Shown here: positions 6,406 to 61,916 of the stretch, in pieces
How positions within the stretch are numbered: position 1 is the stretch's first letter
How the letters are laid out: the number at the start of each line of letters is the position of its first letter
NCBI GenBank assembly: GCA_964016885.1
Contig: OZ024745.1
Coordinates: forward strand, 76,384,001-76,448,000
Length of the DNA: 64,000 nt
Origin: Eledone cirrhosa
Lineage: Eukaryota
Direction: 5' to 3'
Program-made: the position numbers and the translations under genes
The notes under the pieces: generated by a model
What the model was told of the DNA's origin: nothing
The model's database searches: none
The model's input: the letters and a program-made list of their open reading frames with translations, nothing else

Positions 6406-6406
6406 T

Positions 6407-6501: not shown

Positions 6502-6544
<43 letters not shown>

Positions 6545-6570
6545 CACACACAGAAATGTATATATATTTC

Positions 6571-6617
<47 letters not shown>

Positions 6618-6715
6618 CACACACAGAAATGTATATATATTTCTGTGTGTATATATATATATTTCTGTGTGTGTATATATATATTACACACACACAGAAA
6701 TGTATATATGTTTCT
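6407..6715. repeat. Minisatellite of self-complementary units separated by (TA)n
   Basis: ~5 copies of TTACACACACAGAAAT-GTATATAT-ATTTCTGTGTGT. Confidence 0.9.
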
Positions 6716-7010
6716 GTAGCACTCCTCAATTCCCCTCTCTCTCCCTCCCGCTATCCCCCTCTTTCACTCTCACTCTCTCTCTATGCGTGCGCAAAAAACA
6801 TTCGCACGCGCGCACGTGTTTTAGCGTCTATTCACTCTCTCTCTCTCCCTCTCTCCCTCCTGCTATCCCCCTCTCGTAGTTTGTCTCTTTCATTCACTCT
6901 CACTCTCTCTCTACGCGTGCGCAAAAAACATTCGCACGCGCGCACGTGTTTCCACTGTCGGACAGACAGACAGACAAACAGAGAAATTGCTTGTTATATA
7001 TTATAAGGAG
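6710..7010 (-). mobile_element. 5' part of non-autonomous Helitron, paralogous to 6195-6368
   Basis: Minus strand starts TCTCCTTATAATATATAACAAGCAATTTCTCTG+(TCTG)n; internal duplication of CTACGCGTGCGCAAAAAACATTCGCACGCGCGCACGTG. Confidence 0.6.
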
Positions 7011-19366: not shown

Positions 19367-19845
19367 CCTCTGTCTTTCTGCATGTCATTCCATCTGTTTA
19401 CAACTGAGAGCAAAAAAAAAAAAAAAAAAAAAAAAGAAAGAAATGGCTTGTTTTTCTGATGTTATTTTTTTTCCTGCTAATTTTGGTTTGTTTAACAAAA
19501 GCTGTATGAATTCCCACACAAGACGCCTAAAAAAATATGTTTCTCTATCTATTTCTTTTTCTATTAAAATAATTAATATAATTAATATAATTAAAATAAA
19601 AAAAAAATCTACCAAACTTGACTGTTTGTTACTAGTCTGAAATTATGACAGAAAGTAGAATTAGTCTCCTTCTATCTAGGGATAAGTCATCCAAATTAAT
19701 AAAAAAATAATTTTAAAAATGTCTGAACCTCATATGCTTTCATTATGTACTGTAACGAGCTGTAACTACCTGCAGCAGCGAGGCCTTTTCTTCAGCACTT
19801 TAATAAACTTGTTAATCCACCACCACCGTACATATTTGTACATAA

Positions 19846-20021
19846 TTGTTTCTACTTTAGGCACAAGGCCAGCAATTACCCAGTGCATTACTGGTACTTT
19901 ATTTTATCGACACCGTAAGGATGAAAGGCAAAGTCAATTTCGGCGGGATTTGATCTGAGTTCAAATCCCGCCGAGGTTGACTTTGCCTTTCATCCTTACG
20001 GTGTCGATAAAATAAAGTACC
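19846..20021. mobile_element. Two back-to-back SINE family A fragments
   Basis: Minus copy 19846-19952 abuts plus copy 19952-20021 at GATC. Confidence 0.8.
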
Positions 20022-20215
20022 TGTCACGGACGTACATACTGGATTTGATATAATCGACTTTCACTTCTTTCCCTCTTAAAACAAATATATATATATCGAG
20101 TGCACACCCGGGTGAACCTACAGTAACTCCGCGTTACACTCCTTGTATATATCATCATCATCGTTTAACGTCTATCTTCCACGCTAGCATGGGTTTGTAT
20201 ATATATGTATGTATA

Positions 20216-32350: not shown

Positions 32351-33425
32351 TCTACTATATAAATTGGAAGTGGTCGGACGTTGTATATGTAGGTGTAGTC
32401 GGATAAACGTCGAAACGGCTTGGTGGAAATGCAGCGAAAATTTACACAGTTATGCAGAATGACCCGAGGAGGCGTTGGGTCGACTTTCAAGCTACAAGCT
32501 ACAAGCTTGAAAGAAAATCGATGAAACAGGAATTTCCCATTCAAATTGAACTGAGAGTAATCTGTGAACGCAGAAGTAAATATTTCGAGAAACGTTGCAA
32601 CCGAACGAAAACAGGAAGACGATATTTTGGTTCGTGAAGACGTTCCCTGGCATTGAACGGGAAAAAGCGAGGATAATACGTCGTTATGTGGAGCGTAAAG
32701 AACAATTTCATGCAAAGACAAGACCAAGTTTATGGTATAAATGGAGTGGTTAGACTAATATTCTATTTAAAATAACAGAATGATTTCCAGCCCCGGAGTT
32801 TAAGAATGATGTAAATAAAATTCAAAACGAAAATGACAGAGATTATTAAAATAGTAAAAGTAAATAGTGAAGATTTAGGCCAGTACATACGTATGCCCCG
32901 ACGGACATACACATACATACGCACACACAAATACATACCCCCCTACCCCCACCCCACACGAACGAACGCACGCGCGTATGTATAAACCTTATGCATTTCT
33001 ACAGTATTTTTACCAAACTTAAGACATAGGTTACTTATGTACTCCGGATGGTCATGGGCACTGTCATTTTTCCAGATATTGATTATAGCCCCCCCCCCCG
33101 GCAGATAACCCCTTTAACCACTTTAACCACTTCCTTGGAGTTGACTGAAGCACTGCAGTGTAATGCAACAAAATGTCATAACTTCTGGAGTTCGCAACCG
33201 ATTTTCACAAAACTTGACACATGGGCTATGTTTGTCTTACAGATGAATGTGAACTCTCAGAATTGGCACATATTGGGTAGGGGACCCCTGGGGGCAGGAA
33301 CCCCCTTTTGGAAAAAGCCGATGATTTTGTAAAAGTATAGTTTTCGAAGCAGCACTGAAGTATTGACATAAATGGTATACACAACTGCTATTTAATACCC
33401 GAGCAACGCCGGGTACTTCCGCTAG
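32351..33425 (+). mobile_element. Non-autonomous Helitron
   Basis: A|TCTACTATATAAA start; CCCGAGCAACGCCGGG hairpin then CTAG|T end; homologue of 3739-4700. Confidence 0.8.
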
Positions 33426-33428
33426 TAA

Positions 33429-33455
33429 TCTATATATAAAACTGTTGTTGTTTTT

Positions 33456-40427: not shown

Positions 40428-40474
40428 CTCACACATACGCACGTGTATACATACACTTATATATACACACAATG

Positions 40475-40988
40475 TTTGAAAGTACGGGTGTCATCAACTA
40501 TCTTTCTTTTTCAACATGAGATTTTTTAAAGAAAAGAGGGCGGGGGGAGAATCCCGTTACTTGAAGGTGGAATATCACTTTTTTGTGTTCAGTAGTGGTT
40601 TGTATTTTCTAATAAAGAATTCTTCTTTCTATTTTCGGAAGTGTTCGTTGTCCGACCATATCTTAAAGAAGGGGAAAAATTGTGAAATTTCCCTTTCCGC
40701 ATGTTGCGAAGTGTTCACTGCATGTCGTGTTTCTGACGGAGGGGTCTCTAATTTATTGATATTGTACTCAAACTATGTCATGTAGAACCGTTCCGGTTTC
40801 ACCAATGTAGTATTCTTTACATTGTAGGCAGGTTGCACAGTAAATCAAGTTTTTGGTTTTGCAATTCATGTTTGCATTAACTGTGAAAGACTCGTTGTTT
40901 TTAAAGGAGATTTGTCCACACCCTTCAATGTGTTTGCAAGTTCCGCATCGAGGGTCCCCGTATTTCTTAACTTGCATTGCTTCATTTA
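40475..40988 (-). mobile_element. Penelope-like element 3' half (Cys linker + GIY-YIG)
   Basis: PRCGTC..MNCKTKNLIYCATCLQCKEYYIGETG; downstream KEEFFIRKYKPLLN. Confidence 0.88.
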
Positions 40989-43474
40989 GACCGTGTAACA
41001 AAAAAAAATATTTTTCTCTGTTCCTGGCTTGTAATTACTTTTTTTGTGTTGCTTAGATCCCAAATAAAAAAAAAGAGAGCTATTAAACAGTTAAAAGTTT
41101 CGGTTTGTAAAAATTCAAAGCTATTCAACATTTGTTGCATGTATTCCACTCTGTGCTTTTAATTTGAATTTGAATTTTTGTACAATTCCCGTAAAATATA
41201 TGTCACATCCATTCCACCCTGTAAATACGAAACTGTTGCTCACAACATCAATATATATGTATCTGTATTATTGTTCAGTTGAATAGGAGGTTAATTACAT
41301 GTACAAATATTGATAATGCTCCGATGACCCCCAAATGAGAGTTTGGAAAAAACGATTGTCAGCTATGAAATGATTTGAACACAACCTTGATAATTGTCTA
41401 ATTTATTTATTTATTTATTATTATATATACATATATATATATATATAGTTAAGGAGGGTATCCCAAATGTCATCGGGAAATAACCACAGCAAAATAAGGT
41501 GCTCAATACATTAGTAAAGAATAAGTATATTTATTTCTCTCTCTCCGCCAGTCTATAATCTATACACTAACACAACAGATGACACACGTATTCAAACAGA
41601 TCTCCTTCAAATATTATGGTTATAGTGGACAATATATGAAAACATATCCATGAATAGAAAGCCTTTGATCATACGTCTGCGCAATAACGGCTTACCTGAA
41701 GCCAAACAATATCAACAAATATCATTTTATTAGAAATTCTGTATTTATATGGAAACGATTGGATGTCAATAGTAATGCTCCAAGTATATTTGATGCTATT
41801 TTTAACAACTCTTATTTATTCCGTCAGTTTTAATTTGCAAATATTTGTGGTAGAATGGTAAATACTCCAACATTTCTTATTTGATTTAATTGTAGGTGTT
41901 ATTGTTTACGTTGTCATTATTAATCGTTGTCATAACTTTGCCTTTCATCCTTCCGGGGTCGATAGAATAAAGTACCAGTAATGCATAGGGTAATTGCTGG
42001 CCTTGTGCCAAAAGTAGAAACAATTATTAATAGGGGGCGGTAGATTGGCAGTATCAGTAGAGTGCCGGGCACCATGCTTTGTAGCATAGCGTTATGGCCT
42101 TTAACCTTCTGAGTTCATATTTAGTTACTAACGTTTCTTTAAATTTTGAGTTCAATTCCGCAATAGTTGACTTGCCCTTCACTGGTGGTCGGTAAATATA
42201 TATCGACTGTTCCATGTCTGAAATTGCTCTAATGCTAGAAATCCTCCTTATTGGAATATATGAGAAGATATGGTTTATAGAAGTAGTAAAACACCGGATA
42301 TTGTTACTGTAAATAATACTTTGGGGACTTCGTCCGCATGAAAAGCAACAGCTACTCAAAGATTAAGCTAGTTAATGAGAAGAACAATAAAAACTCAACG
42401 AGATATACTTAAGTATTAAACAAAAACAATGTATGCCAATTACTAATATTATTTTCATATTCCTGGCAGTTCCAAAAATGCTTCGGAATTATTGTAGGTT
42501 TCATTGCGCTTAAGTAAAATTTACAAGAATTCACATTTTTGGGGAGCTAGAATCGCGTTTGGATTGACTTTCTCTTTTATCCGACTATATATCTATTGCC
42601 AGCACTACCTCGTCTTATTTTCAAGCACAATCTATCGAGAACCAGAGTAGCTTAAGTGTCCTTCCTACGTTAAGTTATGATTTGAAGAATTTCAGCTTCA
42701 CGTTTTAGTAGCCGACTTCCTCATTAAGGAAAATAAATTTATTCCACATTTGAACTACTTATAATTACTTCCTGGAGCCTGTCATTCAGTACTGCTTACT
42801 GCTTATGACATTAATTTTCAGCTATGTTCTCAAGGAAGGCCACATAAGAAATGTTCCTAGTTGAATTTACACCGCAGTTAATTTTGCCTTTTGTGGCACT
42901 GCAGTCGCTAAAGTAAGTGTAAATCAGGTACGAAAGTCGGTTTAATCGCAACAAATTTCTGGATCTTATGACACTGAAATAAAATCATTGCTATTTGCCA
43001 TATTACATCGCAAAAGATTGTACATCTAACTACTGATATTACATTCTGGTAACTACATCAATTTAACTCACATGACTTCAGTTGAATATATCTACCAGAA
43101 TATGTAGACGGGGTGCAAGTGAGAGATGTTAACCTACAAATATTCTTTATGATGGAATAAAATATTTCATGGTAAAACAATATTTAATGTTCCCATTTCA
43201 CATATATGAACACTGTTCTTGATAAAGGAATAGACGTTGTCATACATTCTCACTAACAGGAAGCTTTTACTCGAAAACAGTAAGCTTATTTCTACATTCT
43301 CTCACTTAATAGTTTAAGCAAGTATACACTCACACATGCGTAATACAATTGTGATCCTTGCTTGAAAGAATGAAAAGTAAAACAACAGATCTTGAATTGT
43401 AGCAGTGATTTCATAAACATAGCAATTGAGTGATCAATCGGCACGTTATGTTGAATTCAAGTTTATGATTTATA

Positions 43475-43559
<85 letters not shown>

Positions 43560-43830
43560 GGAGAGAGAGAGACAGTGGAATGTTGAAAATATTTACGGTC
43601 TCTGAGATTTAAAATCTGCATTTTATTGACAGGTTTTTGAAAGAACTAGCTTGATTTATAATCATAGTTATACATTACCGTATATACTCGCGTATAGGTC
43701 GCCCCGGCAGATATGTCGCATAACCACTTTTCATTTAACAAATAGGCAATTTGCCATTGACTCGCAGATAGGTCGCACTGAAATTTGGGCCGTGAAACTA
43801 CTATTTTTTAATGATAATTGAAACTAATAA

Positions 43831-45309
43831 GACCGTGTAACAAACATTTTTTTATTCTCTGTTTCTGGCTTGTAATCACTTTTTTGTGTTGCTTAGGTCC
43901 CAAATAAATAAAAAAGTGCTATTAAACAGTTAAAAGTTTGGGTTTGTAAAAATTCTAAGCTATTCACTAGAATTATTTGTATGCTGGATTTTACGTTGTA
44001 TGTAAGTTTAATTTGCTTATGTTAAATGATTTTTTAAAATATATGTTTCAGGTTAAATTAAAATTATAAATAAAGAGTAATACCTAAAGAAAATTATAAA
44101 AGTGCAATAAAGTATAAAAAGTGGATTAAAGAGATTTATTGATACTGGGGTACCAGAAAAAGTTCCTCACTTCCCAAACCAAAAAGAAGTCAATGACTTG
44201 GTCAGGGATATGGGTCTGACCAAGTCCAATGCAGAGCTATTCGTCTCCAGGATGAAGCAGTAGAAGTTGGTCAAGAAGGAAGTGCAGGTGACAAGTCAGA
44301 GAAGTCGACACGAACCTTTCTCAGTCTTTTACACTCTTAGGAATGGCCTCTGCTTCTGCCATGACGTGCCTGGACTGTTTGACGTTATTGGGGTGCCGTT
44401 TGTGCCCAAGGAGTGGCGGCTATTTATAGACAGCTCCACCACAAATTTGAAAGCTGTCCTCCTCTACAATGGTAACAAGTTACCGACACTGCCCCTAGCT
44501 CATTAAGTCTTGCCTGAAAGAAGATTACTACAGTGTGAAAGTCCTCTTGGAAGCTCTGCAATACAACCAGTACAATTAGGAAATCATTGGAGACTTCAAG
44601 ATGGTGGCTTTCCTGCTTGGACTCCAAGGAGGCTTTATCAAATTCCAATGCTTCTTCTGCCTTTGGGACAGCAGAGCCACCTCTGACCACTACAAAAGAA
44701 AGAACTGGGAGCAGCGAACAGAATTTGTAGTTGGGACCCGGAATGTCATGTGGGAGCCACTGGTTGACCCCCAGGATTGTGATCATGCCGCCACTGCACA
44801 TTCAGTTGGGGTTGATGAAGCAGTTTGTGAAGGCTCTCAACCAAGAATCAGCCGCTTTTAAGTACCTTCTTGAGTTCTTCCCCAAGTTATCTGAGGCATA
44901 AATCAAAGGTAGAATTTTTGTTGGACCTCAGATAAAGAAGGTGTTTGAGTCTACCGAGTTCTCCAATAAGCTCAATAGGATTGAGAGAACAGCATGGAAC
45001 TGTTTTAAGGCAGTTGTTAAGGGCTTCCTGGGCAACTACAGAGCTGAAAACTACCAGCAACTGGTGCAGGATCTGATAAAGGCTTTTGGCGCCATGGGAT
45101 GCAGGATGTCGCTTAAACTCCATATGCTGGACGCTCACCTGGAAAAATTCAAGGACAATATGGGCGCCTACTCAGAAGAACAAGGCGAACGATTCCATCA
45201 ATATATGAAAGAGATAGAGCGGAGATACCAGGGCCACAACAATGAAAAAATGATGGGGGACTATATCTGGGGGCTAGTGCGGGAATGCGACCTGGACTAC
45301 AACCGCAAA
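43831..45309 (+). pseudogene. Chapaev3-like (CMC group) DDE transposase copy 1, right end missing
   Basis: EWRLFIDSS..LKAVLL.NGN, CFFCLWDSR, GPQI, MSLKLHML, EEQGERFHQ; stops and frameshifts. Superfamily call from recalled motifs plus termini. Confidence 0.8.
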
Positions 45310-47730
45310 GCTCCTTTCTCAATGCCTCTTTAATTATTAGACTATTCTCTTGTATTATCTATTGCATGTATTCCACTCTGTGCTTTTAAATTGAATTTGA
45401 ATTTTTGTACAATTATCATAAAATATGTCACATCCATTCCACCGTGTAAATACGAAACTGTTGCTCACAACATCAATATATATGTATCTATATTATTGTT
45501 CAGTTGAATAGGAGGTTAATTACATGTACAAACATTGATAATGCTCCGATGCCACCAAATGAGAGTTTGGAAGAAATGATTGTCAGCTATTTAATGATTT
45601 GAACACAACCTTGATAATTGTCTAATTTATTTATTTATTTATTATTATATATACATATATATATATATATATAGTTAAGGAGGGTATCCCAAATGTCATC
45701 GGGAAATAACCACAGCAAAATAAGGTGCTCAATACATTAGTAAAGAATAAGTATATTTATTTCTCTCTCTCCGCCAGTCTATAATCTATACACTAACACA
45801 ACAGATGACACACGTATTCAAACAGATCTCCTTCAAATATTATGGTTATAGTGGACAATATATGAAAACATATCCATGAATAGAAAGCCTTTGATCATAT
45901 GTCTGCGCAATAACGGCTTACCTGAAGCCAAACAACATCAACAAATATCCTTTTATTAGAAATTCTGTATTTATATGGAAACGATTGGATGTCAATAGTA
46001 ATGCTCCAAGTATATTTGATGCTATTTTTAACAACTCTTATTTATTCCGTCGGTTTTAATTTGCAAATATTTGTGGTAGAATGGTAAATACTCCAGCATT
46101 TCTAATTTGATTTAATTGTAGGTGTTATTGTTTACGTTGTCATTATTAATCGTTGTCATAACTTTGCCTTTCATCCTTCCGGGGTCGATAGAATAAAGTA
46201 CCAGTAATGCATTGGGTAATTGCTGGCCTTGTGCCTAAAGTAGAAACAATTATTAATAGGGGGCGGTAGATTGGCAGTATCAGTAGAGTGCCGGACACCA
46301 TGCTTTGTAGCATAGCGTTATGGCCTTTAACCTTCTGAGTTCATATTTAGTTACTAACGTTTCTTTAAATTTTGAGTTCAATTCCACAATAGTTGACTTG
46401 CCCTTCACTGGTGGTCGGTAAATATATATCGACTGTTCCATGTCTGAAATTGCGCTAATGCTAGAAATCCTCCTTATTGGAATATATGAGAAGATATGGT
46501 TTATAGAAGTAGTAAAACGCCGGATATTGTTACTGTAAATAATACTTTGGGGACTTCGTCCGCATGAAAAGCAACAGCTACTCAAAGATTAAGCTAGTTA
46601 ATGAGAAGAACAATAAAAACTCAACGAGATATACTTAAGCATTAAACAAAAACAATGTATGCCAATTACTAATATTATTTTCATATTCCTGGCAGTTCCA
46701 AAAATGCTTCGGAATTATTGTAGGTTTCATTGCGCTTAAGTAAAATTTACAAGAATTCACATTTTTGGGGAGCTAGAATCGCGTTTGGATTGACTTTCTC
46801 TTTTATCCGACTATATATCTATTGCCGGCACTACTTCGTCTTATATTCAAGCACAATCTATCGAGAACTATAGTAGCTTAAGTGTCCTTCCTACGTTAAG
46901 TTATGATTTCAAGAATTTCAGCTTCACGTTTTAGTAGCCGACTTCCTCATTAAGGAAAATAAATTTATTCCACATTTGAACTACTTATAATTACTTCCTG
47001 GAGCCTGTCATTCAGTACTGCTTACTGCTTATGACATTAATTTTCAGCTATGTTCTCAAGGAAGGCCACATAAGAAATGTTTCTAGTTGAATTTACATCG
47101 CAGTTAATTTTGCCTTTTGTGGCACTGCAGTCGCTAAAGTAAGTATAAATCAAGTACGAAAGTCGGTTTAATCGCAACAAATTTCTGGATCTTATGACAC
47201 TGAAATAAAATCATTGCTATTTGCCATATTACATCGCAAAAGATTGTACATCTAACTACTGACATTACATTCTGGTAACTACATCAATTTAACTCACATG
47301 ACTTCAGTTGAATATATCTACCAGAATATGTAGACGGGGTGCAAGTGAGAGATGTTAACCTACAAATATTCTTTATGATGGAATAAAATATTTCATGGTA
47401 AAACAATATTTAATGTTCCCATTTCACATATATGAACACTGTTCTTGATAAAGGAATAGACGTTGTCATACATTCTCACTAACAGGAAGCTTTTACTCGA
47501 AAACAGTAAGCTTATTTCTACATTCTCTCACTTAATAGTTTAAGCAAGTATACACTCACACATGCGTAATACAATTGTGATCCTTGCTTGAAAGAATGAA
47601 AAGTAAAACAGCAGATCTTGAATTGTAGCAGTGATTTCATAAACATTCTTCAGCTGGAATATGAGACTTAATTATTAATAGCCATTGAGTGGTAAATCGG
47701 CACGTTATGTTGAATTCAAGTTTATGATTT

Positions 47731-47810
<80 letters not shown>

Positions 47811-48141
47811 TAGATAGATAGAGAGAGAGATAGAGATAGAGATAGAGAGATAGATAGAGAGAGAGAGAAAGGGAGAGAGAGAGACAGCGGAATGTTGAAA
47901 ATATTTACGGTCTCTGAGATTTAAAATCTGCATTTTATTGACAGGTTTTTGAAAGAACTAGCTTGATTTATAATCATAGTTCACATTACCGTATATACTC
48001 GCGTATAGGTCGCCCCGGCAGATATGTCGCATAACCACTTTTCATTTAACAAATAGGCAATTTGCCATTGACTCGCAGATAGGTCGCACTGAAATTTGGG
48101 CCGTGAAACTACTATTTTTTAATGATTATTGAAACTAATAA

Positions 48142-49621
48142 GACCGTGTAACAAACATTTTTTTATTCTCTGTTTCTGGCTTGTAATCACTTTTTTGTGT
48201 TGCTTAGGTCCCAAATAAATAAAAAAGTGCTATTAAACAGTTAAAAGTTTGGGTTTGTAAAAATTCTAAGCTATTCACTAGAATTATTTGTATGCTGGAT
48301 TTTACGTTGTATGTAAGTTTAATTTGCTTATGTTAAATGATTTTTTAAAAATATATGTTTCAGGTTAAATTAAAATTATAAATAAAGAGTAATACCTAAA
48401 GAAAATTATAAAAGTGCAATAAAGTATAAAAAGTGGATTAAAGAGATTTATTGATACTGGGGTACCAGAAAAAGTTCCTCACTTCCCAAACCAAAAAGAA
48501 GTCAATGACTTGGTCAGGGATATGGGTCTGACCAAGTCCAATGCAGAGCTATTCGTCTCCAGGATGAAGCAGTAGAAGTTGGTCAAGAAGGAAGTGCAGG
48601 TGACAAGTCAGAGAAGTCGACACGAACCTTTCTCAGTCTTTTACACTCTTAGGAATGGCCTCTGCTTCTGCCATGACGTGCCTGGACTGTTTGACGTTAT
48701 TGGGGTGCCGTTTGTGCCCAAGGAGTGGCGGCTATTTATAGACAGCTCCACCACAAGTTTGAAAGCTGTCCTCCTCTACAATGGTAACAAGTTACCGACA
48801 CTGCCCCTAGCTCATTAAGTCTTGCCTGAAAGAAGATTACTACAGTGTGAAAGTCCTCTTGGAAGCTCTGCAATACAACCAGTACAATTAGGAAATCATT
48901 GGAGACTTCAAGATGGTGGCTTTCCTGCTTGGACTCCAAGGAGGCTTTATCAAATTCCAATGCTTCTTCTGCCTTTGGGACAGCAGAGCCACCTCTGACC
49001 ACTACAAAAGAAAGAACTGGGAGCAGCGAACAGAATTTGTAGTTGGGACTCGGAATGTCATGTGGGAGCCACTGGTTGACCCCCAGGATTGTGATCATGC
49101 CGCCACTGCACATTCAGTTGGGGTTGATGAAGCAGTTTGTGAAGGCTCTCAACCAAGAATCAGCCGCTTTTAAGTACCTTCTTGAGTTCTTCCCCAAGTT
49201 ATCTGAGGCATAAATCAAAGGTAGAATTTTTGTTGGACCTCAGATAAAGAAGGTGTTTGAGTCTACCGAGTTCTCCAATAAGCTCAATAGGATTGAGAGA
49301 ACAGCATGGAACTGTTTTAAGGCAGTTGTTAAGGGCTTCCTGGGCAACTACAGAGCTGAAAACTACCAGCAACTGGTGCAGGATCTGATAAAGGCTTTTG
49401 GCGCCATGGGATGCAGGATGTCGCTTAAACTCCATATGCTGGACGCTCACCTGGAAAAATTCAAGGACAATATGGGCGCCTACTCAGAAGAACAAGGCGA
49501 ACGATTCCATCAATATATGAAAGAGATAGAGCGGAGATACCAGGGCCACAACAATGAAAAAATGATGGGGGACTATATCTGGGGGCTAGTGCGGGAATGC
49601 GACCTGGACTACAACCGCAAA
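48142..49621 (+). pseudogene. Chapaev3-like transposase copy 2, right end missing
   Basis: Nearly identical to copy 1. Confidence 0.8.
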
Positions 49622-52045
49622 GCTCCTTTCTCAATGCCTCTTTAATTATTAGACTATTCTCTTGTATTATCTATTGCATGTATTCCACTCTGTGCTTTTA
49701 AATTGAATTTGAATTTTTGTACAATTATCATAAAATATGTCACATCCATTCCACCGTGTAAATACGAAACTGTTGCTCACAACATCAATATATATGTATC
49801 TATATTATTGTTCAGTTGAATAGGAGGTTAATTACATGTACAAACATTGATAATGCTCCGATGCCACCAAATGAGAGTTTGGAAGAAATGATTGTCAGCT
49901 ATTTAATGATTTGAACACAACCTTGATAATTGTCTAATTTATTTATTTATTTATTATTATATATACATATATATATATATATATAGTTAAGGAGGGTATC
50001 CCAAATGTCATCGGGAAATAACCACAGCAAAATAAGGTGCTCAATACATTAGTAAAGAATAAGTATATTTATTTCTCTCTCTCCGCCAGTCTATAATCTA
50101 TACACTAACACAACAGATGACACACGTATTCAAACAGATCTCCTTCAAATATTATGGTTATAGTGGACAATATATGAAAACATATCCATGAATAGAAAGC
50201 CTTTGATCATATGTCTGCGCAATAACGGCTTACCTGAAGCCAAACAACATCAACAAATATCCTTTTATTAGAAATTCTGTATTTATATGGAAACGATTGG
50301 ATGTCAATAGTAATGCTCCAAGTATATTTGATGCTATTTTTAACAACTCTTATTTATTCCGTCGGTTTTAATTTGCAAATATTTGTGGTAGAATGGTAAA
50401 TACTCCAACATTTCTAATTTGATTTAATTGTAGGTGTTATTGTTTACGTTGTCATTATTAATCGTTGTCATAACTTTGCCTTTCATCCTTCCGGGGTCGA
50501 TAGAATAAAGTACCAGTAATGCATTGGGTAATTGCTGGCCTTGTGCCTAAAGTAGAAACAATTATTAATAGGGGGCGGTAGATTGGCAGTATCAGTAGAG
50601 TGCCGGACACCATGCTTTGTAGCATAGCGTTATGGCCTTTAACCTTCTGAGTTCATATTTAGTTACTAACGTTTCTTTAAATTTTGAGTTCAATTCCACA
50701 ATAGTTGACTTGCCCTTCACTGGTGGTCGGTAAATATATATCGACTGTTCCATGTCTGAAATTGCGCTAATGCTAGAAATCCTCCTTATTGGAATATATG
50801 AGAAGATATGGTTTATAGAAGTAGTAAAACGCCGGATATTGTTACTGTAAATAATACTTTGGGGACTTCGTCCGCATGAAAAGCAACAGCTACTCAAAGA
50901 TTAAGCTAGTTAATGAGAAGAACAATAAAAACTCAACGAGATATACTTAAGCATTAAACAAAAACAATGTATGCCAATTACTAATATTATTTTCATATTC
51001 CTGGCAGTTCCAAAAATGCTTCGGAATTATTGTAGGTTTCATTGCGCTTAAGTAAAATTTACAAGAATTCACATTTTTGGGGAGCTAGAATCGCGTTTGG
51101 ATTGACTTTCTCTTTTATCCGACTATATATCTATTGCCGGCACTACTTCGTCTTATATTCAAGCACAATCTATCGAGAACTATAGTAGCTTAAGTGTCCT
51201 TCCTACGTTAAGTTATGATTTCAAGAATTTCAGCTTCACGTTTTAGTAGCCGACTTCCTCATTAAGGAAAATATATTTATTCCACATTTGAACTACTTAT
51301 AATTACTTCCTGGAGCCTGTCATTCAGTACTGCTTACTGCTTATGACATTAATTTTCAGCTATGTTCTCAAGGAAGGCCACATAAGAAATGTTTCTAGTT
51401 GAATTTACATCGCAGTTAATTTTGCCTTTTGTGGCACTGCAGTCGCTAAAGTAAGTATAAATCAAGTACGAAAGTCGGTTTAATCGCAACAAATTTCTGG
51501 ATCTTATGACACTGAAATAAAATCATTGCTATTTGCCATATTACATCGCAAAAGATTGTACATCTAACTACTGACATTACATTCTGGTAACTACATCAAT
51601 TTAACTCACATGACTTCAGTTGAATATATCTACCAGAATATGTAGACGGGGTGCAAGTGAGAGATGTTAACCTACAAATATTCTTTATGATGGAATAAAA
51701 TATTTCATGGTAAAACAATATTTAATGTTCCCATTTCACATATATGAACACTGTTCTTGATAAAGGAATAGACGTTGTCATACATTCTCACTAACAGGAA
51801 GCTTTTACTCGAAAACAGTAAGCTTATTTCTACATTCTCTCACTTAATAGTTTAAGCAAGTATACACTCACACATGCGTAATACAATTGTGATCCTTGCT
51901 TGAAAGAATGAAAAGTAAAACAGCAGATCTTGAATTGTAGCAGTGATTTCATAAACATTCTTCAGCTGGAATATGAGACTTAATTATTAATAGCCATTGA
52001 GTGATAAATCGGCACGTTATGTTGAATTCAAGTTTATGATTTATA

Positions 52046-52119
<74 letters not shown>

Positions 52120-52445
52120 TAGATAGAGAGAGAGATAGAGATAGAGATAGAGAGATAGATAGAGAGAGAGAGAAAGGGAGAGAGAGAGACAGCGGAATGT
52201 TGAAAATATTTACGGTCTCTGAGATTTAAAATCTGCATTTTATTGACAGGTTTTTGAAAGAACTAGCTTGATTTATAATCATAGTTCACATTACCGTATA
52301 TACTCGCGTATAGGTCGCCCCGGCAAATAGGTCGCATAACCACTTTTCATTTAACAAATAGGCTATTTGCCATTGACTCGCAGATAGGTCGCACTGAAAT
52401 TTGGGCCGACAAACTACTATTTTTTATGATAATTGAAACTAATAA

Positions 52446-54435
52446 CACCGTGTAACAAACATTTTTTTATTCTCTGTTCCTGGCTTGTAATCAGTCTTTT
52501 TGTGTTGCTTAGGTCCCAAATAAATAAAAAAGTGCTATTAAACAGTTAAACGTTTGGGTTTGTAAAAATTCTAAGCTATTCACTAGAATTATTTGTATGC
52601 TGGATTTTACGTTGCATGTAAGTTTAATTTGCTTATGTTAAATGATTTTTAAAATATATGTTTCAGGTTAAATTAAAATTATAAATAAAGAGTAATACCT
52701 AAAGAAAATTATAAAAGTGCAGCAAAGTATAAAATTGTTAAAAAGTGGATTAAAGAGATTTATTGATACTGGATTTTCGCACCCTGAATAAAGGGTAAGT
52801 TGTGTTTTAAGCACGAATTTTCATTAGTATGATTAGTGTTCTTTTATATTATTTAAATATGTATTTCCCTTTCCGATATTTATTTTGTATTGCATATCAA
52901 ATTTATTTTCCAAGACAAGTATTCTGATGAAGAGGAGGATATGGATGCTGAGGACTTGGATTACCTGCATGAGGTACCAGAAAAAGTTACTCACTTCCCA
53001 AACCAAAAAGAAGTCAATGACTTGGTCAGGGATATGGGTCTGACCAAGTCCAATGCAGAGCTATTCGTCTCCAGGATGAAGCAGTGGAACTTGGTCAAGG
53101 AAGAAGTACAGGTGACAAGTCAGAGAAGTCGACACGAACCTTTCTCAGGCTTTTACACTCTTAGGGATGGCCTCTGCTTCTGCCATGACGTGCCTGGACT
53201 GTTTGACGTTATTGGGGTGCCGTTTGTGCCCAAGGAATGGCGGCTATTTATAGACAGCTCCACCACAAGTTTGAAGGCTATCCTTCTCCACAATGGAAAC
53301 AAGTTCCCGACACTGCCCCTAGCTCATTAAGTCTACCTGAAGGATGATTACTACAGTGTGAAAGTCCTCTTGGAAACTCTGCAATACAACCAGTATAATT
53401 GGGAAATCATTGGAGAATTCAAGATGGTGGCTTTCCTGCTTGGACTCCAAGGAGGCTTTATCAAATTCCAATGCTTCCTCTGCCTCTGGGACAGTAGAGC
53501 CACCTCTGACCACTACAAAAGAAAGAACTGGGAGCAGCGAACAGAATTTGTAGTTGGGACCCGGAACGTCATGTGGGAGCCACTGGTAGATCCCAGGATT
53601 GTGCTCATGCCGCCACTGCACATTAAGTTGGGGTTGATGAAGCAGTTTGTGAAGGCTCTCAACCAAGAATCAGCCGCTTTTAAGTACCTTCTTGAGTTCT
53701 TCCCCAAGTTATCTGAGGCATAAATCAAAGGTAGAATTTTTGTTGGACCTCAGATAAAGAAGGTGTTTGAGTCTACCGAGTTCTCCAATAAGCTCAATAG
53801 GATTGAGAGAACAGCATGGAACTGTTTTAAGGCAGTTGTTAAGGGCTTCCTGGGCAACTACAGAGCTGAAAACTACCAGCAACTGGTGCAGGATCTGATA
53901 AAGGCTTCTGGTGCCATGGGATGCAGGATGTCGCTTAAACTCCATATGCTGGACACTCACCTGGAAAAATTCAAGGAAATTTGGGCGCCTACTCAGAAGA
54001 ACAAGGCGAACAATTCCATCAATATGTGAAAGAGATAGAGCGGAGATACCAGGGCCACTACAATGAAAAAATGATGGGGGACTATATCTGGGAGCTAGTG
54101 TGGGAATGCGACCTGGACTACAATCGCAAATCCAGGAAATCCAGTCATTTCTGACGTGTATAAGTTGCTGTATAAGTGTTATTTGTTTTTACTTGTTTGC
54201 TTTTGATAAGCTTGTGTAATAAAATAAATATATACTCTGTTGATTTAATTATATGAACTGATACATTTTTAGAAAATGTGTTTTTTCTTGAAAAATATGA
54301 AAATTTCGAAATATCAAACTCCTTACCACAAACCCAAACTTCTGATTAAATAATAGTGTTTTTTTTATAATAATGGGATATAACAAACCATGAAATGACA
54401 CTTAGGACCGGGGAACAAAAAGTATGTTACACGTC
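52446..54435 (+). mobile_element. Chapaev3-like element copy 3 (longest, both ends, candidate intron 52795-52914)
   Basis: CACCGTGTAAC left end; MPPLHIKLGLMKQFVKA; GTAAGT...TTTTCCAAG intron-like segment absent from other copies. Confidence 0.82.
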
Positions 54436-55219
54436 TAATTATTAGACGTAAATTTGCCTTGGTAAGCAGTTTCTTTAGGTTGGGTGCTTGGCGTCTACTA
54501 TATATAATTTGTGCGCCTTTCATGAGTGCATTCATCTTAGGGGACTGCTGGAGAATCGAGAGATATTGTTTGGCAGCTTTCACAATGTTGAAGTTCCTTG
54601 GATTGTGAGTGATGACAAAAGGGATAACTGTTTTTTACATTCTATTTTGTTGCTTTGTTTTTCTCAGTGTTGTCACTGGAATGTTCTGGGCTTTGGAGAT
54701 GGTTGTGTTGATGAGGTTCACCGGATATTCTTGTCTTTTAAGGGACTCTTTTAATTCATATAATCTTTTTTCCTGTAGTGTGGGGTGTGTTACTATGGTG
54801 CAGATGCGTCTTGCCATGTTAAAAGGAATGTTCCTTTTGGTATGTGATGGGTGTGCTGAACGGAAATTTAAGTATTGGTGTGTGTCTGTTGGTTTGTAAA
54901 ATAAGTCCGTTTTGATATTTTCCCTTTCCTTAATGATAAGGATATCCAGAAACGGTAGTTCCTTTTTATTACATTCCATGGTGAATTTTATTTCTTTGTA
55001 AAGATTGTTTATGATGGAATGGAATCTTTGCAGGTCTTCTTGGCTTCTATTCCAGAAGATGAAGCAGTCGCCTAGGTAGCGTTTCCAGTTGTGATTAATG
55101 TAGGTGGCGAAGTCATGACTGAATGTTTCCTGCAGTTAGGAATGTAATTTTGCCTCTAGGTGGCCCATAACGAGTGTTGCATATGTTAGGGCCACTTTGG
55201 TGCCCATGGCCGTTCCTTT

Positions 55220-55220
<1 letters not shown>
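54436..55220 (-). mobile_element. Penelope-like element RT/thumb half (continues at 40988)
   Basis: GTAMGTK..YA.LVMG, WKRYLGD, LPFLDI, YKPTDTHQYL, HPSHTKRNIP, RRQAPNLKKLL. Confidence 0.88.
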
Positions 55221-55253
<33 letters not shown>

Positions 55254-55394
55254 CATAATAATAATACTATTTATAGTTATGTATATAGTATAAACAACTA
55301 TAAACAGGAAAGGTCATTAATTTCCTACTACCTTATTACCAGTAAGAGAAATAGCTCAATGTAAGAACATCAGTTGTTTTACAGAGCAGGAAAA

Positions 55395-55722
55395 TAAATA
55401 AATTAGACAATTATCAAGGTTGTGTTCAAATCATTTAATAGCTGACAATCGTTTCTTCCAAACTCTCATTTGAGGTCATCGGAGCATTATCAATGTGTGT
55501 ACATGTAATTAACCTCCTATTCAACTGAACAATAATATAGATACATATATATTGATGTTGTGAGCAACAGTTTCGTATTTACAGGGTGGAATGGATGTGA
55601 CATATTTTACGAGAATTGTACAAAAATTCAAATTCAAATTAAAAGCCCAGAGTGGAATACATGCAACAGATAATACAAGAGAATAGTCTAATAATTAAAT
55701 AGGCATTGAGAAAGAAGCTTTG
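55395..55722 (-). repeat. Inverted copy of 56951-57285 (probable Penelope pseudo-LTR)
   Basis: Reverse-complement match over ~330 bp; contains hammerhead-like motif 55441-55485. Confidence 0.75.
55441..55485 (-). ncRNA. Hammerhead-like motif with CCGAUGA core
   Basis: gct CCGATGA cctcaaat-gaga-gtttggaa GAAAC gatt GTC agc; plus-strand paralogues at ~41318, 45544, 49856, 57190 carry extra core mutations. Confidence 0.45.
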
Positions 55723-55756
55723 AGAATATGTAGAGACATTTAATGTAATATGTAAT

Positions 55757-56140
55757 AATTGTTTCTACTTTAGGCACAAGGCCAGCAATTACCCAGTGCA
55801 TTACTGGTACTTTATTTTATCGACCCCGTAAGGATGAAAGGCAAAGTCAACCTCGGCGGGATTTGAACTCAGATCATAAAGGGACGTAACTATGCTGGAA
55901 AGCATGGTGTCCGACCCTCTACTGATACTGCCAATCCACCGCCCTTGTATAATTGTTTCTACTTTAGGCACAAGGCCAGCAATTACCCAGTACATTACTG
56001 GTACTTTATTTTATCGACCCCGTAAGGATGAAAGGCAAAGTTAACCTCGGCGGGATTTGAACTCAGACTGTAAAGGGACGTAACTATTCTAGAAATCATG
56101 GCGCCCACCCCTCTACCGATACTGCCATTTCCCCGCCCTC
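55757..56140 (-). mobile_element. Two tandem SINE family A copies
   Basis: Consensus matches; pair flanked by direct repeat AATGTAATATGTAATAAT. Confidence 0.88.
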
Positions 56141-57289
56141 AATGTAATATGTAATAATAAACTATATATACATTTATATAATTAAATTAATAACATGTAT
56201 ATAAGGATCTACCTTTAACACAATATAATAATAATAAAGTATATATACATTTATAATTAAATATATAATGTAATAGCATTGTATATAAGGATTAATTTTT
56301 AACCAATAACTTATATTATTACACAAATGATATATCTATTTGGACATATAAACAACTATACAATTGTCCATAACATATATCTTATCCAGTAATGAATAGA
56401 TAACAATCTAAAGGGACCTTTAATGTATTATAATAAAATACACTGTATTTAAAATCAAGTATAAATGTATAGCATTATGTAATAGAGATTCAACTGTATC
56501 ACATTATAATGTGTATTAGAGCAAAGATTTTGAATAACTGAATTTAATTAACTAGTTACCTCCCCTTACTCACTTCCGGAAATTAACCGTTGGAAAACCT
56601 ACCTGTTGAACAACTATAGTCCATGAATAAGAATACAATAAGACTAATTTACAATCCATTGCTTTAACTAACTTAAAACACTCAATATAAACATTAACTA
56701 AAATATAATTCAACATATGTAATGGAAGAGACTGCAATAACTTTGTTCTTCTCAACACACACAAATTCAAACACTATCAACATACTACGTCCACCATAGA
56801 TTTTAATACATTACATATTTGCTTAAAATACGGTATTTATTTATCTATATATGCATAATAACTTTGCTTATTTGCTTCTCATATATATGACTAACGCATG
56901 TGCACTTTCTACACGACTGCATATGTATTGCTAATGTACTATTTCTTTCTCAAAGCTCCTTTCTCAATGCCTCTTTAATTATTAGACTATTCTCTTGTAT
57001 TATCTGTTGCATGTATTCCACTCTGTGCTTTTAATTTGAATTTGAATTTTTGTACAATTCTCGTAAAATATATGTCACATCCATTCCACCGTGTAAATAC
57101 GAAACTGTTGCTCACAACATCAATATATATGTATCTATATTATTGTTCAGTTGAATAGGAGGTTAATTACATGTACAAACATTGATAATGCTCCGATGCC
57201 ACCAAATGAGAGTTTGGAAGAAACGATTGTCAGCTATTAAATGATTTGAAAACAACCTTGATAATTGTCTAATTTATTTATTTATTTAT

Positions 57290-57388
<99 letters not shown>

Positions 57389-58382
57389 AGGAGGGTATCC
57401 CAAATGTCATCGGGAAATAACCACAGCAAAATAAGGTGCTCAATACATTAGTAAAGAATAAGTATATTTATTTCTCTCTCTCCGCCAGTCTATAATCTAT
57501 ACACTAACACAACAGATGACACACGTATTCAAACAGATCTCCTTCAAATATTATGGTTATAGTGGACAATATATGAAAACATATCCATGAATAGAAAGCC
57601 TTTGATCATACGTCTGCGCAATAACGGCTTACCTGAAGCCAAACAATATCAACAAATATCATTTTATTAGAAATTCTGTATTTATATGGAAACGATTGGA
57701 TGTCAATAGTAATGCTCCAAGTATATTTGATGCTATTTTTAACAACTCTTATTTATTCCGTCGGTTTTAATTTGCAAATATTTGTGGTAGAATGGTAAAT
57801 ACTCCAACATTTCTTATTTGATTTAATTGTAGGTGTTATTGTTTACGTTGTCATTATTAATCGTTGTCATAACTTTGCCTTTCATCCTTCCGGGGTCGAT
57901 AGAATAAAGTACCAGTAATGCATCGGGTAATTGCTGGCCTTGTGCCTAAAGTAGAAACAATTATTAATAGGGGGCGGTAGATTAGCAGTATCAGTAGAGT
58001 GCCGGACACCATGCTTTGTAGCATAGCGTTATGGCCTTTAACCTTCTGAGTTCATATTTAGTTACTAACGTTTCTTTAAATTTTGAGTTCAATTCCACAA
58101 TAGTTGACTTGCCCTTCACTGGTGGTCGGTAAATATATATCGACTGTTCCATGTCTGAAATTGCGCTAATGCTAGAAATCCTCCTTATTGGAATATATGA
58201 GAAGATATGGTTTATAGAAGTAGTAAAACACCGGATATTATTACTGTAAATAATACTTTGGGGACTTCGCCCGCATGAAAAGCAACAGCTACTCAAATAT
58301 TAAGCTAGTTAATGAGAAGAACAATAAAAACTCAACGAGATATACTTAAGCATTAAACAAAAACAATGTATGTCAATTACTA

Positions 58383-58570
58383 GTGAATTGGCAGTATCGG
58401 TAGAGGATCGGACGCCATGCTTTGCAACATAGATTTACGGCCCTTCATGATCTGAGTTCAATCCCGCCGAGGTTGACTTTGCCTTTCATCCTTACGGGGT
58501 CGATAAAATAAAGTACCAGTAATGTACTGGGTAATTTGCTGGCCTTGTGCCAATAGTAGAAACAATTATT
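58383..58570 (+). mobile_element. SINE family A present only in the fourth unit copy
   Basis: Absent at the orthologous positions ~42445, 46670, 50982. Confidence 0.88.
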
Positions 58571-59817
58571 TTCAGTTCCAAAAATGCTTCGGAATTATTG
58601 TAGGTTTCATTGCGCTTAAGTAAAATTTACAAGAATTCACATTTTTGCGGAGCTAGAATCGCGTTTGGATTGACTTTCTCTTTTATCCGACTATATATCT
58701 ATTGCCGGCACTACCTCGTCTTATTTTCAAGCACAATCTATCGAGAACCATAGTAGCTTAAGTGTCCTTCCTACGTTAAGTTATGATTTGAAGAATTTCA
58801 GCTTCACGTTTTAGTAGCCGACTTCCTCATTAAGGAAAATAAATTTATTCCACATTTGAACTACTTATAATTACTTCCTGGAGCCTGTCATTCAGTACTG
58901 CTTACTGCTTATGACATTAATTTTCAGCTATGTTCTCAAGGAAGGCCACATAAGAAATGTTTCTAGTTGAATTTACACCGCAGTTAATTTTGCCTTTTGT
59001 GGCACTGCAGTCGCTAAAGTAAGTGTAAATCAGGTACGAAAGTCGGTTTAATCGCAACAAATTTCTGGATCTTATGACACTGAAATAAAATCATTGCTAT
59101 TTGCCATATTACATCGCAAAAGATTGTACATCTAACTACTGATATTACATTCTGGTAACTACATCAATTTAACTCACATGACTTCAGTTGAATATATCTA
59201 CCAGAATATGTAGACGGGGTGCAAGTGAGAGATGTTAACCTACAAATATTCTTTATGATGGAATAAAATATTTCATGGTAAAACAATATTTAATGTTCCC
59301 ATTTCACATATATGAACACTGTTCTTGATAAAGGAATAGACGTTGTCATACATTCTCACTAACAGGAAGCTTTTACTCGAAAACAGTAAGCTTATTTCTA
59401 CATTCTCTCACTTAATAGTTTAAGCAAGTATACACTCACACATGCGTAATACAATTGTGATCCTTGCTTGAAAGAATGAAAAGTAAAACAGCAGATCTTG
59501 AATTGTAGCAGTGATTTCATAAACATTCTTCAGCTGGAATATGAGACTTAATTATTAATAGCAATTGAGTGATAAATCGGCACGTTATGTTGAATTCAAG
59601 TTTATGATTTATAGAGGGAGAGATAGATAGATAGATATATAGATAGAGAGATAGATAGAGAGAGAGAGAGATAGATAGATAGAGAGAGAGAGATAGAGGG
59701 AGAGAGAGAGAGACAGCGGAATGTTGAAAATATTTACGGTCTCTGAGATTTAAAATCTGCATTTTAATGACAGGTTTTTGAAAGAACTAGCTTGATTTAT
59801 AATCATAGTTCACATTA

Positions 59818-61916
59818 CCGTATATACTCGCGTATAGGTCGCTCCGGCAGATAGGTCGCATAACCACTTTTCATTTAACAAATAGGCTATTTGCTATTGA
59901 CTCGCAGATAGGTCGCACTGAAATTTGGGCCGTGAAACTACTATTTTTTATGATAATTGAAACTAATAACACCGTGTAACAAATATTTTTTTATTCTCTG
60001 TTCCTGGCTTGTAATCACTTTTTTGTGTTGCTTAGGTCCCAAATAAATAAAAAAGTGCTATTAAACAGTTAAAAGTTTGGGTTTGTTAAAATTCTAAGCT
60101 ATTCACTAGAATTATTTGTATGCTGGATTTTACGTTGTATGTAAGTTGCTTATGTTAAATGATTTTTAAAATATATGTTTCAGGTTAAATTAAAATTATA
60201 AATAAAGAGTAATACCTAAAGAAAATTATAAAAGTGCAATAAAGTATAAAATTGTTAAAAAGTGGATTAAAGAGATTTATTGATACTAGGGTACCAGAAA
60301 AAGTTCCTCACTTCCCAAACCAAAAAGAAGTCAATGACTTGGTCAGGGATATGGGTCTGACCAAGTCCAATGCAGAGCTATTCGTCTCCAGGATGAAGCA
60401 GTGGAATTTGGTCAAGATGGAAGTGCAGGTGACAAGTCAGAGAAGTCGACACGAACCTTTCTCAGTCTTTTACACTCTTAGGGATGGCCTCTGCTTCTGC
60501 CATGACGTGCCTGGACTGTTTGACGTTATTGGGGTGCTGTTTGTGCCCAAGGAATGGCGGCTATTTATAGACAGCTCCACCACAAGTTTGAAAGCTGTCC
60601 TCCTCCACAATGGAAACAAGTTCGCGACACTGCCTCTAGCTCATTAAGTTTGCCTGAAGGAAGATTACTACAGTGTGAAAGTCCTCTTGGAAGCTCTGCA
60701 ATACAACCATTATAATTGGGAAATCATTGGAGACTTCAAGATGGTGGCTTTCTTGCTTGGACTCCAAGGAGGCTTTATCAAATTCCAATGCTTCCTCTGC
60801 CTTTGGGACAGCAGAGCCACCTCTGACCACTACAAAAGAAAGAACTGGGAGCAGCGAACAGAATTTGTAGTTGGGACCCGGAACGTCATGTGGGAGCCAC
60901 TGGTTGATCCCAGGATTGTGCTCATGCCGCCACTGCACATTAAGTTGGGGTTGATGAAGCAGTTTGTGAAGGCTCTCAACCAAGAATCAGCCGCTTTGAA
61001 GTACCTTCTTGAGTTCTCCCCCAAGTTATCTGAGGCATAAATCAAAGGTAGAATCTTTGTTGGACCTCAGATAAAGAAGGTGTTTGAGTCTACCGAGTTA
61101 TCCAATAAGCTCAATAGGATTGAGAGAACAGCATGGAACTGTTTCAAGGCAGCTGTTAAGGGCTTCCTGGGCAACTACAGAGCTGAAAACTACAAGCAAC
61201 TGGTGCAGGATCTGATAAAGGCTTTTGGCGCCATGGGATGCAGGATGTCGCTTAAACTCCATATGCTGGACACTCACCTGAAAAAATTCAAGGAAATTTG
61301 GGCGCCTACTCAGAAGAACAAGGCGAACGATTCCATCAATATGTGAAAGAGATAGAGCGGAGATACCAGGGCCACTACAATGAAAAAATGATGGGGGACT
61401 ATATCTGGGAGCTAGTGTGGGAATGCGACCTGGACTACAACCGCAAATCCAGGAAATCCACTCATTTCTGACGTGTATAAGTTGCTTTATAAGTGTTATT
61501 TGTTTTTACTTGTTTGCTTTTGATAAGCTTGTGTAATAAAATAAATATATGCTCTGTTGATTTAATTATATGAACTGATACAGTTTTAGAAAATGTGTTT
61601 CTTCTTGAAAAATATGAAAATTTCGAAATATCAAACTCCTGACCACAAACTCAAACTTCTGATTAAATAATAGTGTTTTTTTAAAAATAATAATGGGATA
61701 TAAAAAACCAGTAAATGACACTTAGAACCGGGGAAGAAAAAAATGTTACACGGTGTAATACAAAATATTAACAAAGTTATTTTTATAAATACCCATCGTT
61801 GATTAAGTCTATGAAAAATCATTGGTCAGTCTGATGTCGATCGGATAGGTCGCACCCCAAAAATTTATACTTATTTATCGTTAAAAAAGTGCGACATATA
61901 CGCGAGTATATACGGG
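59818..61916. mobile_element. Tc2/pogo-like non-autonomous element (TA target), host of the Chapaev3-like insertion
   Basis: TA|CCGTATATACTCGCGTATAGGTCGC ... GCGACATATACGCGAGTATATACGG(G)|TA; left halves only at 43678, 47989, 52294. Confidence 0.8.
59970..61755 (+). mobile_element. Chapaev3-like DNA transposon copy 4, both TIRs and TAA TSD
   Basis: TAA|CACCGTGTAACA ... TGTTACACGGTG|TAA; CAC/GTG termini with 3-bp TWA duplication; transposase pseudogene 60290-61471. Confidence 0.88.

What the first reader, a model, noticed from the sequence alone, without database searches (positions are those of the whole stretch)
40989..54435. 13.4 kb composite insertion: transposon ends enclose triplicated neighbouring DNA and split a Penelope ORF
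Seen: a Penelope-like ORF on the minus strand breaks at 54436 (..PNLKKLLTKA) and resumes at 40988 (NEAMQVKK..PRCGTC, GIY-YIG). The intervening block starts GACCGTGTAAC and ends GTTACACGTC (both GAC variants of the CAC..GTG Chapaev3-like terminus; flanks TTA/TAA share TA). A ~140 bp orphan left end is fused at ~41128 to non-transposon flank, followed by three units copied from 56951-61755, only 2.5 kb away. Inference: a local macro-transposition or alternative-end transposition carried ~2.7 kb of flank, then tandem amplification followed; a transposon-driven segmental duplication caught with its donor.
Basis: partly seen in the sequence, partly recalled or inferred. Interest (0 to 1): 0.7.

Follow-up and report, generated by a model that had tools for sequence, protein, structure and literature searches.

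The report
Broken transposon patched with neighbouring DNA
An old DNA transposon copy that splits a retrotransposon now holds three copies of a 4-kb stretch from 2.5 kb away, likely because a break in it was repaired by copying from a nearby sister copy rather than by a jump, which is a known way that transposons duplicate neighbouring DNA.

Summary
The block, the split Penelope-like ORF and the nearby donor are real. 18 of 19 other Penelope copies run straight through the site, which is an A-TTA-T Chapaev3 target. The single-locus part has 4 genome hits, all here. Contigs of one public sample bridge the left junction, and allele depths run 1:2:3. Macro-transposition is not supported. The donor element D carries an inherited 200-bp deletion and a right-end variant shared with its subfamily and its nested siblings. 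The block's last element lacks both, and the 140-bp left end is not D-type either. So both outer ends belong to a second copy, X, that sat in the Penelope, and no reversed-ends partner lies within 100 kb left or 200 kb right. Most likely X broke and was refilled from the D locus: one homologous join, one 4-bp microhomology slip and one join with filler. Unit 2 is a much younger unequal-crossover chimera (7 differences in 4,304 bp). This is a large, well-resolved single-copy Pack-TIR or repair-mediated duplication, with no gene captured. An 8-bp fold-back at the right terminus may be a hairpin excision scar.

The parts
40470..40988 (-). 3' part of the Penelope-like retroelement (nuclease region, decayed); ends at the left target copy, which reads TTTA where TTA is expected
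40989..41127 (+). Left end of resident Chapaev3-like copy X; first base C>G; not of the donor's lineage
   Evidence: 88% to the donor's left end, lacks the donor-lineage marks
41128..41132 (.). Filler at the X-stump/flank join, giving a 5-bp fold-back CAACA-TT-TGTTG (weak evidence)
41130..45309 (+). Unit 1 = donor 57002-61447 without the donor's SINE; holds a deletion-subfamily element 43831-45309, cut short on the right; its first base is also C>G
45306..45309 (.). Unit junction 61447>56951 on 4-bp microhomology CAAA (repeated at 49618-49621)
45306..49621 (+). Unit 2: young chimera, U3-like on the left and U1-like on the right; crossover between 47982 and 48021
   Evidence: 7 mismatches in 4,304 aligned bases; allele depths
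49618..54433 (+). Unit 3 = donor 56951 onward, ending in a hybrid element
52446..54433 (+). Hybrid element: donor-type left end; non-donor 200 bp (52772-52972) and mostly non-donor to ~53276; donor-lineage tract 53329-54272; non-donor variant at 54391-54392
54431..54449 (.). Right junction: terminal GTG lost, TCTAA gained, giving an 8-bp stem around the TTA target copy (54439-54441)
54439..55219 (-). 5' part of the Penelope-like element (RT C-terminal region), ending at a microsatellite
55241..57283 (.). High-copy repeat with inverted arms 55392-55726 and 56947-57283; both copy breakpoints (56951, 57002) lie at the inner end of the right arm; class not determined
57385..59790 (.). Donor flank (58600-59560 shown single-locus); longest stop-free frame 102 codons; SINE at about 58383-58575 is absent from all units
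59814..61916 (+). Donor D: a CCGTA-ended host element carrying a deletion-subfamily Chapaev3-like copy (59970-61755); the same nested composite occurs at 3 other loci

Best explanation
The block is the remains of a Chapaev3-like copy (X) inside a Penelope-like element, likely broken and then refilled by repair synthesis from a second family copy (D) and its flank 5.5 kb away, with the middle unit likely added later by unequal crossing-over. Shown: X's two ends sit at the A-TTA-T target; neither outer end is D-type; the filling is D-locus DNA; the joins are one homologous switch (D to X, left of 52772), one 4-bp microhomology slip (61447 to 56951) and one join with filler (41128). Inferred: one repair event (SDSA or BIR with template switching) copied 57002-61447, slipped back to 56951, copied into D's first ~300 bp and annealed to X's right arm. 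A later gene conversion then exchanged about 950 bp between U3 and D. A recent out-of-register crossover between U1 and U3 made U2. Whether the first break was a transposase cut or an ordinary break is open (my estimate about 40:60).
For: Target: 18 of 19 Penelope siblings are contiguous at CA-TTA-TT; Chapaev3 makes TWA duplications between A and T (PMC4079192, passages). Two source copies: the 200-bp deletion junction is in 29 of 29 loci fetched with that junction as query; the right-end G variant is in 15 of 17 covered deletion copies against 3 of 27 full-length copies (p = 4e-7); 3 of 3 nested siblings of D have both; U3's element has neither. Marks shared by U1 and D but not U3 lie left of 53276 (3 sites), and marks shared by all begin at 53329 (7 sites). 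Single locus: 4 of 4 hits are in the window. Joins. U2 chimera. Real DNA: a contig of run X2 spans 40945-41030 with 0 differences; in run X4 the donor allele, the U2+U3 allele and the U1+U2+U3 path have depths 5.6, 11.1 and 17.3. Near-star divergence of U1, U3 and D in flank A (1.1-1.3% pairwise) and in the host-element part fits copying at about one time.
Against: The mosaic is not clean. One U3+D mark (53237) lies in the supposed X tract, one mark is shared by U1+U3 only, and U3+D share 3 derived sites in the repeat arm, so extra conversions or two copying events are needed. X no longer exists whole, so the non-donor tracts of U3 could come from conversions with other family copies. The direction of the middle conversion cannot be told. 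The repeat-derived parts of the units diverged about 3 times more than the flank (U1 vs D 56 of 1,976 against 18 of 1,992, p = 6e-6), which one clean event does not explain. The same C>G sits at U1's inner left end, where no junction is expected. The tool warns that contig depth is not a copy number, and runs X2-X4 are one sample that may be the assembled individual.
Confidence: 0.55

Rival explanations
1. Unequal crossing-over between X and D, two same-direction family copies 5.5 kb apart, duplicated the interval; further rounds and two deletions trimmed it to the present block.
For: U3's element is a D-left/X-right hybrid preceded by D's flank and followed by the Penelope right half, which is the product that such a crossover predicts. 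U2 shows that unequal exchange acts here.
Against: It needs two separate deletions (about 4.4 and 2.8 kb) whose right ends fall 51 bp apart, and a second crossover or conversion to make U1's element deletion-type. No piece of 54439-56950 survives inside the block.
Confidence: 0.3
2. Alternative-end (reversed-ends) transposition with re-replication, or macro-transposition, inserted D's right end with its flank and another copy's left end into an empty Penelope.
For: Transposon ends at a proper target enclose re-copied donor flank, the donor is intact 2.5 kb away, and the inner join is non-homologous, as in maize solo composite insertions (PMC4270019, passages).
Against: The right end and the 200-bp segment are not D's. 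No partner copy lies in 364 kb (one 200-N gap). The donor shows no end or footprint at 57002. Rolling-circle units would repeat the end-to-target junction, and they do not. Rescue needs a lost partner plus two conversions from a full-length copy.
Confidence: 0.08
3. The triplication, or the whole block, is an assembly artefact.
For: U2 differs from its parents at only 7 of 4,304 bases, within reach of allelic differences. No long read was laid, and the right junction was not tested with reads.
Against: U1, U3 and D differ by 0.6-4.6% by segment. The left junction is bridged by a contig with 0 differences, and allele depths run 1:2:3. The U2 join falls in a 39-bp window between diagnostic sites.
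Confidence: 0.03

Closest known systems
Single-copy Pack-TIRs formed by gap filling (Tan et al. 2021, PMC8277862; abstract and one results section read)
   Same: A TIR element whose interior is filled with nearby DNA; single copy; donor under 5 kb away; microhomology at a breakpoint.
   Different: One join here is homologous (to a sister copy of the same family), the fill was copied about twice with a slip, the left breakpoint is 7% from the terminus, and both termini are damaged. The cargo has no gene that I could find.
Repair-mediated duplications (Pace et al. 2009, PMC2671141; abstract and breakpoint section read)
   Same: Proximal donor, with filler, microhomology and deletion at the joins, ascribed to SDSA.
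   Different: Those were up to 619 bp in human; this one is about 8.6 kb before U2 and includes a homologous switch.
Maize Ac/fAc composite insertions (Zhang et al. 2014, PMC4270019; passages read)
   Same: Transposon termini at a target duplication enclosing re-copied donor flank with an end-joining junction; donor retained.
   Different: These need two donor elements with facing ends, each giving one terminus. Here both termini come from the resident copy and no partner is found.
Expansion of TE-containing tandems by unequal exchange (PMC5932611; passages read)
   Same: U2 is a one-step expansion of a dimer whose TIRs are damaged or missing.
   Different: The dimer here was not made by double insertion; its unit is mostly flank DNA.

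Membership tests
Chapaev3 DNA transposon (the element family) | 5'-CAC...GTG-3' terminal inverted repeats | tested here: met
   D and most family copies; definition from PMC4079192. The block's own outer ends have lost them.
Chapaev3 DNA transposon (the element family) | 3-bp TWA target duplication between A and T | tested here: met
   Of 58 loci, 21 matched the two-end pattern and 13 of these have identical TWA on both sides in A..T context (each locus counted on both strands). Empty Penelope site CA-TTA-TT.
Chapaev3 DNA transposon (the element family) | Chapaev3-type DDE transposase | tested here: inconclusive
   No Pfam match above cut-off for 3 fragments. Atlas: unnamed eukaryote clusters at 0.97 with low recognition, RAG1_ZnH2 at 0.89 as a lead only. 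No Repbase-type library was on hand.
Penelope-like element (the host) | One ORF with RT followed by GIY-YIG nuclease | tested here: inconclusive
   RT-like and GIY-YIG-like motifs are read by eye and recalled. Pfam and PDB gave nothing. Atlas gave HTH_animal clusters at 0.97, one with RVT_1 in 17% of members. Continuity of the two halves is shown.
Single-copy Pack-TIR (gap filling) | Both ends of one TIR element enclose captured non-element DNA | tested here: met
   Both ends are non-donor and sit at one target; that they are one copy is inferred.
Single-copy Pack-TIR (gap filling) | Single copy, parent close by in cis | tested here: met
   4 of 4 hits in the window; only the self hit spans the left-end/flank join among 43 matches.
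Single-copy Pack-TIR (gap filling) | Microhomology or filler at breakpoints | tested here: met
   CAAA at the unit join, 5-nt filler at 41128.
Single-copy Pack-TIR (gap filling) | Orthologous element without cargo in an outgroup | not testable with these tools
   No relatives are held for this genome; run X1 of another organism has no continuous cover of the flank.
Composite insertion by reversed-ends transposition | Termini come from two donor elements, one being the element whose flank is copied | tested here: not met
   The right end lacks D's inherited variant.
Composite insertion by reversed-ends transposition | Partner element with a facing end near the donor | tested here: not met
   None in 100 kb left or 200 kb right.
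Composite insertion by reversed-ends transposition | Target duplication around the insert | tested here: met
   TTA on both sides, altered on the left; equally expected from X's own insertion.

The most novel reading that the evidence does not exclude
The block is a fossil of one Chapaev3 excision. The transposase cut X out and left a hairpin on the flank (the 8-bp fold-back around the TTA), and abortive gap repair with template switching rebuilt X's ends and captured about 8.6 kb of neighbouring DNA. That would be sequence evidence that Chapaev3 cuts like Transib/RAG and drives local segmental duplication. One library search (Chapaev + excision + footprint + hairpin) found 0 papers holding all four terms.
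Probability: 0.25. Interest if true: 0.5.

Novelty: new member of a known kind. Interest (0 to 1): 0.3.

Why it matters
It is an unusually legible example of how two nearby copies of one DNA transposon family seed a multi-kilobase duplication that then grows by unequal exchange, and subfamily markers let the steps be separated. It also warns that transposon ends around copied flank do not by themselves show transposition. It captures no gene and the mechanism class is published, so the value is illustrative. The possible hairpin scar bears on the untested cutting chemistry of Chapaev3, a group placed with Transib and RAG1 (PMC4411706, passages).

Tried and rejected
Partner element near the donor: none in 364 kb. 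Other genomic copies of the composite: none. I first read the 200-bp gap as a local deletion passed on by conversion; rejected when it proved to be a subfamily trait. I first read D's TAA/TAA as its own target duplication; rejected because the two flanks are about 820-850 bp apart in empty host copies and siblings share both breakpoints. I suspected the inverted arms belong to this Penelope copy; not supported, since 19 siblings stop matching at 55219, and a follow-up motif search for their upstream frame returned nothing. RAD-seq runs X5-X7 gave 4, 10 and 9 reads, too few to type alleles. Run X1 (small share) was uninformative. Import of private mutation clusters from other family copies: two exact patterns each hit only the two expected window units. 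CpG decay does not explain the excess divergence (1-4 CpG changes of 27-31). Pfam and PDB searches named neither protein. The fold-back control is crude: 9 against a maximum of 8 in 75 family right ends, where many 6-bp stems come from the terminus itself. Earlier-findings look-ups returned nothing. Paper searches were seen as listings only, apart from passages of PMC5932611 and PMC3846280. No supplements were read.

Full report
Setting. The window lies at G000:C5:76,384,001-76,448,000 in a 3.0-Gb, 1,796-contig genome. Self-BLAST resolves the block as a 140-bp left end (40989-41127), then U1 (41130-45309 = 57002-61447), U2 (45306-49621) and U3 (49618-54433 = 56951-61752 plus 200 bp). The donor has a SINE near 58383-58575 that all units lack.

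The split host is real. The right part reads ..LKKLLTKA and the left part NEAMQVKK... Of 19 other copies, 18 are contiguous at CA-TTA-TTAG, and the three translated are in frame. This is the A-TWA-T target reported for Chapaev3 (PMC4079192, passages), and 13 of 21 family loci with both ends matched, out of 58 examined, show it. So a transposase once inserted an element here with a TTA duplication. The name Penelope rests on recalled motifs and an Atlas lead; Pfam and PDB gave nothing.

The outer ends are damaged, not variant. On the left, TTA-CAC reads TTTA-GAC. On the right, GTG is replaced by TCTAA, which with the preceding ACG is the inverted copy of the 8 bases beyond the TTA. Five templated bases have a chance of about 1e-3; the crude family control gave 9 against at most 8 in 75 loci. 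A hairpin on the flank after transposase cutting would give this. So would a short replication template switch (recalled mechanism), so it is not decisive. The left change is weak evidence, because U1's inner left end has the same C>G.

The block is single-locus and present in sequencing data. The single-locus flank has 4 hits of 4 candidates, all here. Only the self hit of 43 spans the left-end/flank join. A contig of run X2 covers 40945-41030 with no difference. In run X4 a donor-allele contig has depth 5.6, the U2+U3 allele 11.1 and the path shared by U1-U3 17.3. X2-X4 are one sample, possibly the assembled one, and contig depth is a rough measure. The right and inner junctions were not shown by reads. 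RAD runs were too thin.

Key test: whose ends are these? The family has about 1,000 candidates. The left end is 88% like D's and lacks D-lineage marks. D, U1 and U2 lack 200 bp that U3 has. That gap is a subfamily trait: 29 of 29 loci fetched with the junction carry it (selected by the query). A right-end G variant goes with it, in 15 of 17 covered deletion copies against 3 of 27 full-length copies (p = 4e-7). D is also one of at least four copies of a nested composite, a CCGTA-ended host carrying the deletion element, and 3 of 3 siblings have both traits. D therefore arrived with them. U3's element has neither, yet it is preceded by D's flank and has a D-type left end. It is a hybrid of D and a full-length copy, most simply the resident X that gave the left end. 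Over 1,150 aligned columns, 7 derived marks are shared by U1, U3 and D (all from 53329 rightward), 7 by U3+D, 3 by U1+D (all up to 53276), 1 by U1+U3, and 17, 16 and 14 are private. This fits an X tract to about 53276 (one conflicting site at 53237) and a later conversion between U3 and D over 53329-54272, direction unknown.

Alternative-end transposition. In maize composite insertions the termini come from two donor elements with facing ends, and the donors stay (PMC4270019, passages). Here the right terminus is not D's, and no other family copy lies within 100 kb left or 200 kb right (one 200-N gap). The donor has no end or scar at 57002. I put this at 0.08.

Most likely course (0.55). X sat in the Penelope, 5.5 kb from D and in the same direction. 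X broke. Repair synthesis joined X's stump to 57002 with filler, ran to 61447, slipped to 56951 on CAAA, ran into D's first ~300 bp and annealed to X's right arm. Flank A is near star-like (1.1-1.3% pairwise among U1, U3 and D), as is the host-element part, which fits one event. This matches single-copy Pack-TIR gap filling, where 56.9% lie within 15 kb of the parent and 67.6% show microhomology (PMC8277862, one section read), and repair-mediated duplication (PMC2671141, abstract and one section). The main rival (0.3) is unequal crossing-over between X and D plus two deletions. It predicts the hybrid directly but needs two deletion ends 51 bp apart and a further step for U1.

Unit 2. Diagnostic sites switch from U3-like to U1-like between 47982 and 48021. 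The shifted 4.3-kb copies differ at 7 of 4,304 bases, one inside the AG run, so U2 is roughly six times younger than the flank split (0.16% against 0.9%).

Against a tidy story. U3 and D share 3 derived sites in the repeat arm, and repeat-derived parts diverged about three times more than the flank (56 of 1,976 against 18 of 1,992 for U1 vs D), at both G/C and A/T sites. Two private clusters occur nowhere else in the genome. This is unexplained.

Verdict. A real, well-resolved transposon-associated segmental duplication of a known kind, with no gene in the cargo (longest stop-free frame 102 codons). Interest 0.3. The boldest reading, an excision fossil with a flank hairpin, has probability 0.25; one four-term search found no paper on it, and most subscription papers are outside that library.

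Noticed in passing
window 59814-61916; L247, L248, L249: The donor is a nested composite: a CCGTA-ended host element whose ~820-850-bp interior is replaced by a deletion-type Chapaev3-like copy. The same breakpoints occur at 3 other loci, so the composite has likely been spread as a unit.
   Followed up: partly
window 41135-45305 against 57007-61443: Repeat-derived parts of the co-duplicated units diverged about 3 times more than the flank between them (p = 6e-6). CpG decay and import from two tested family haplotypes do not explain it.
   Followed up: partly
window 43831 and 40989: The same C>G at the first base of two different left ends (X's and U1's), not seen in the family copies examined.
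   Followed up: partly
window 55241-57283: A high-copy repeat with 335-bp inverted arms, one ending in (TA)n and the other running into a short tail; several other loci show inverted pairs with other spacer lengths. It resembles the inverted pseudo-LTR plus tail described for Penelope elements (PMC3846280, passages), but the class was not established.
   Followed up: partly
family loci L198-L226: A widespread 1.79-kb deletion subfamily of the 1.99-kb element, with a linked right-end variant.
   Followed up: yes
window 55755-56139: Head-to-tail pair of a 194-bp SINE-like repeat, which has many other copies in the window.
   Followed up: no
window 19842-20024, 6406-6717: Short fold-back structures: an inverted SINE fragment pair and a TA-rich palindromic array.
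   Followed up: no
window 3724-4710 against 32560-33439: An inverted pair of an ~1-kb repeat at 84-87% identity, 28 kb apart.
   Followed up: no
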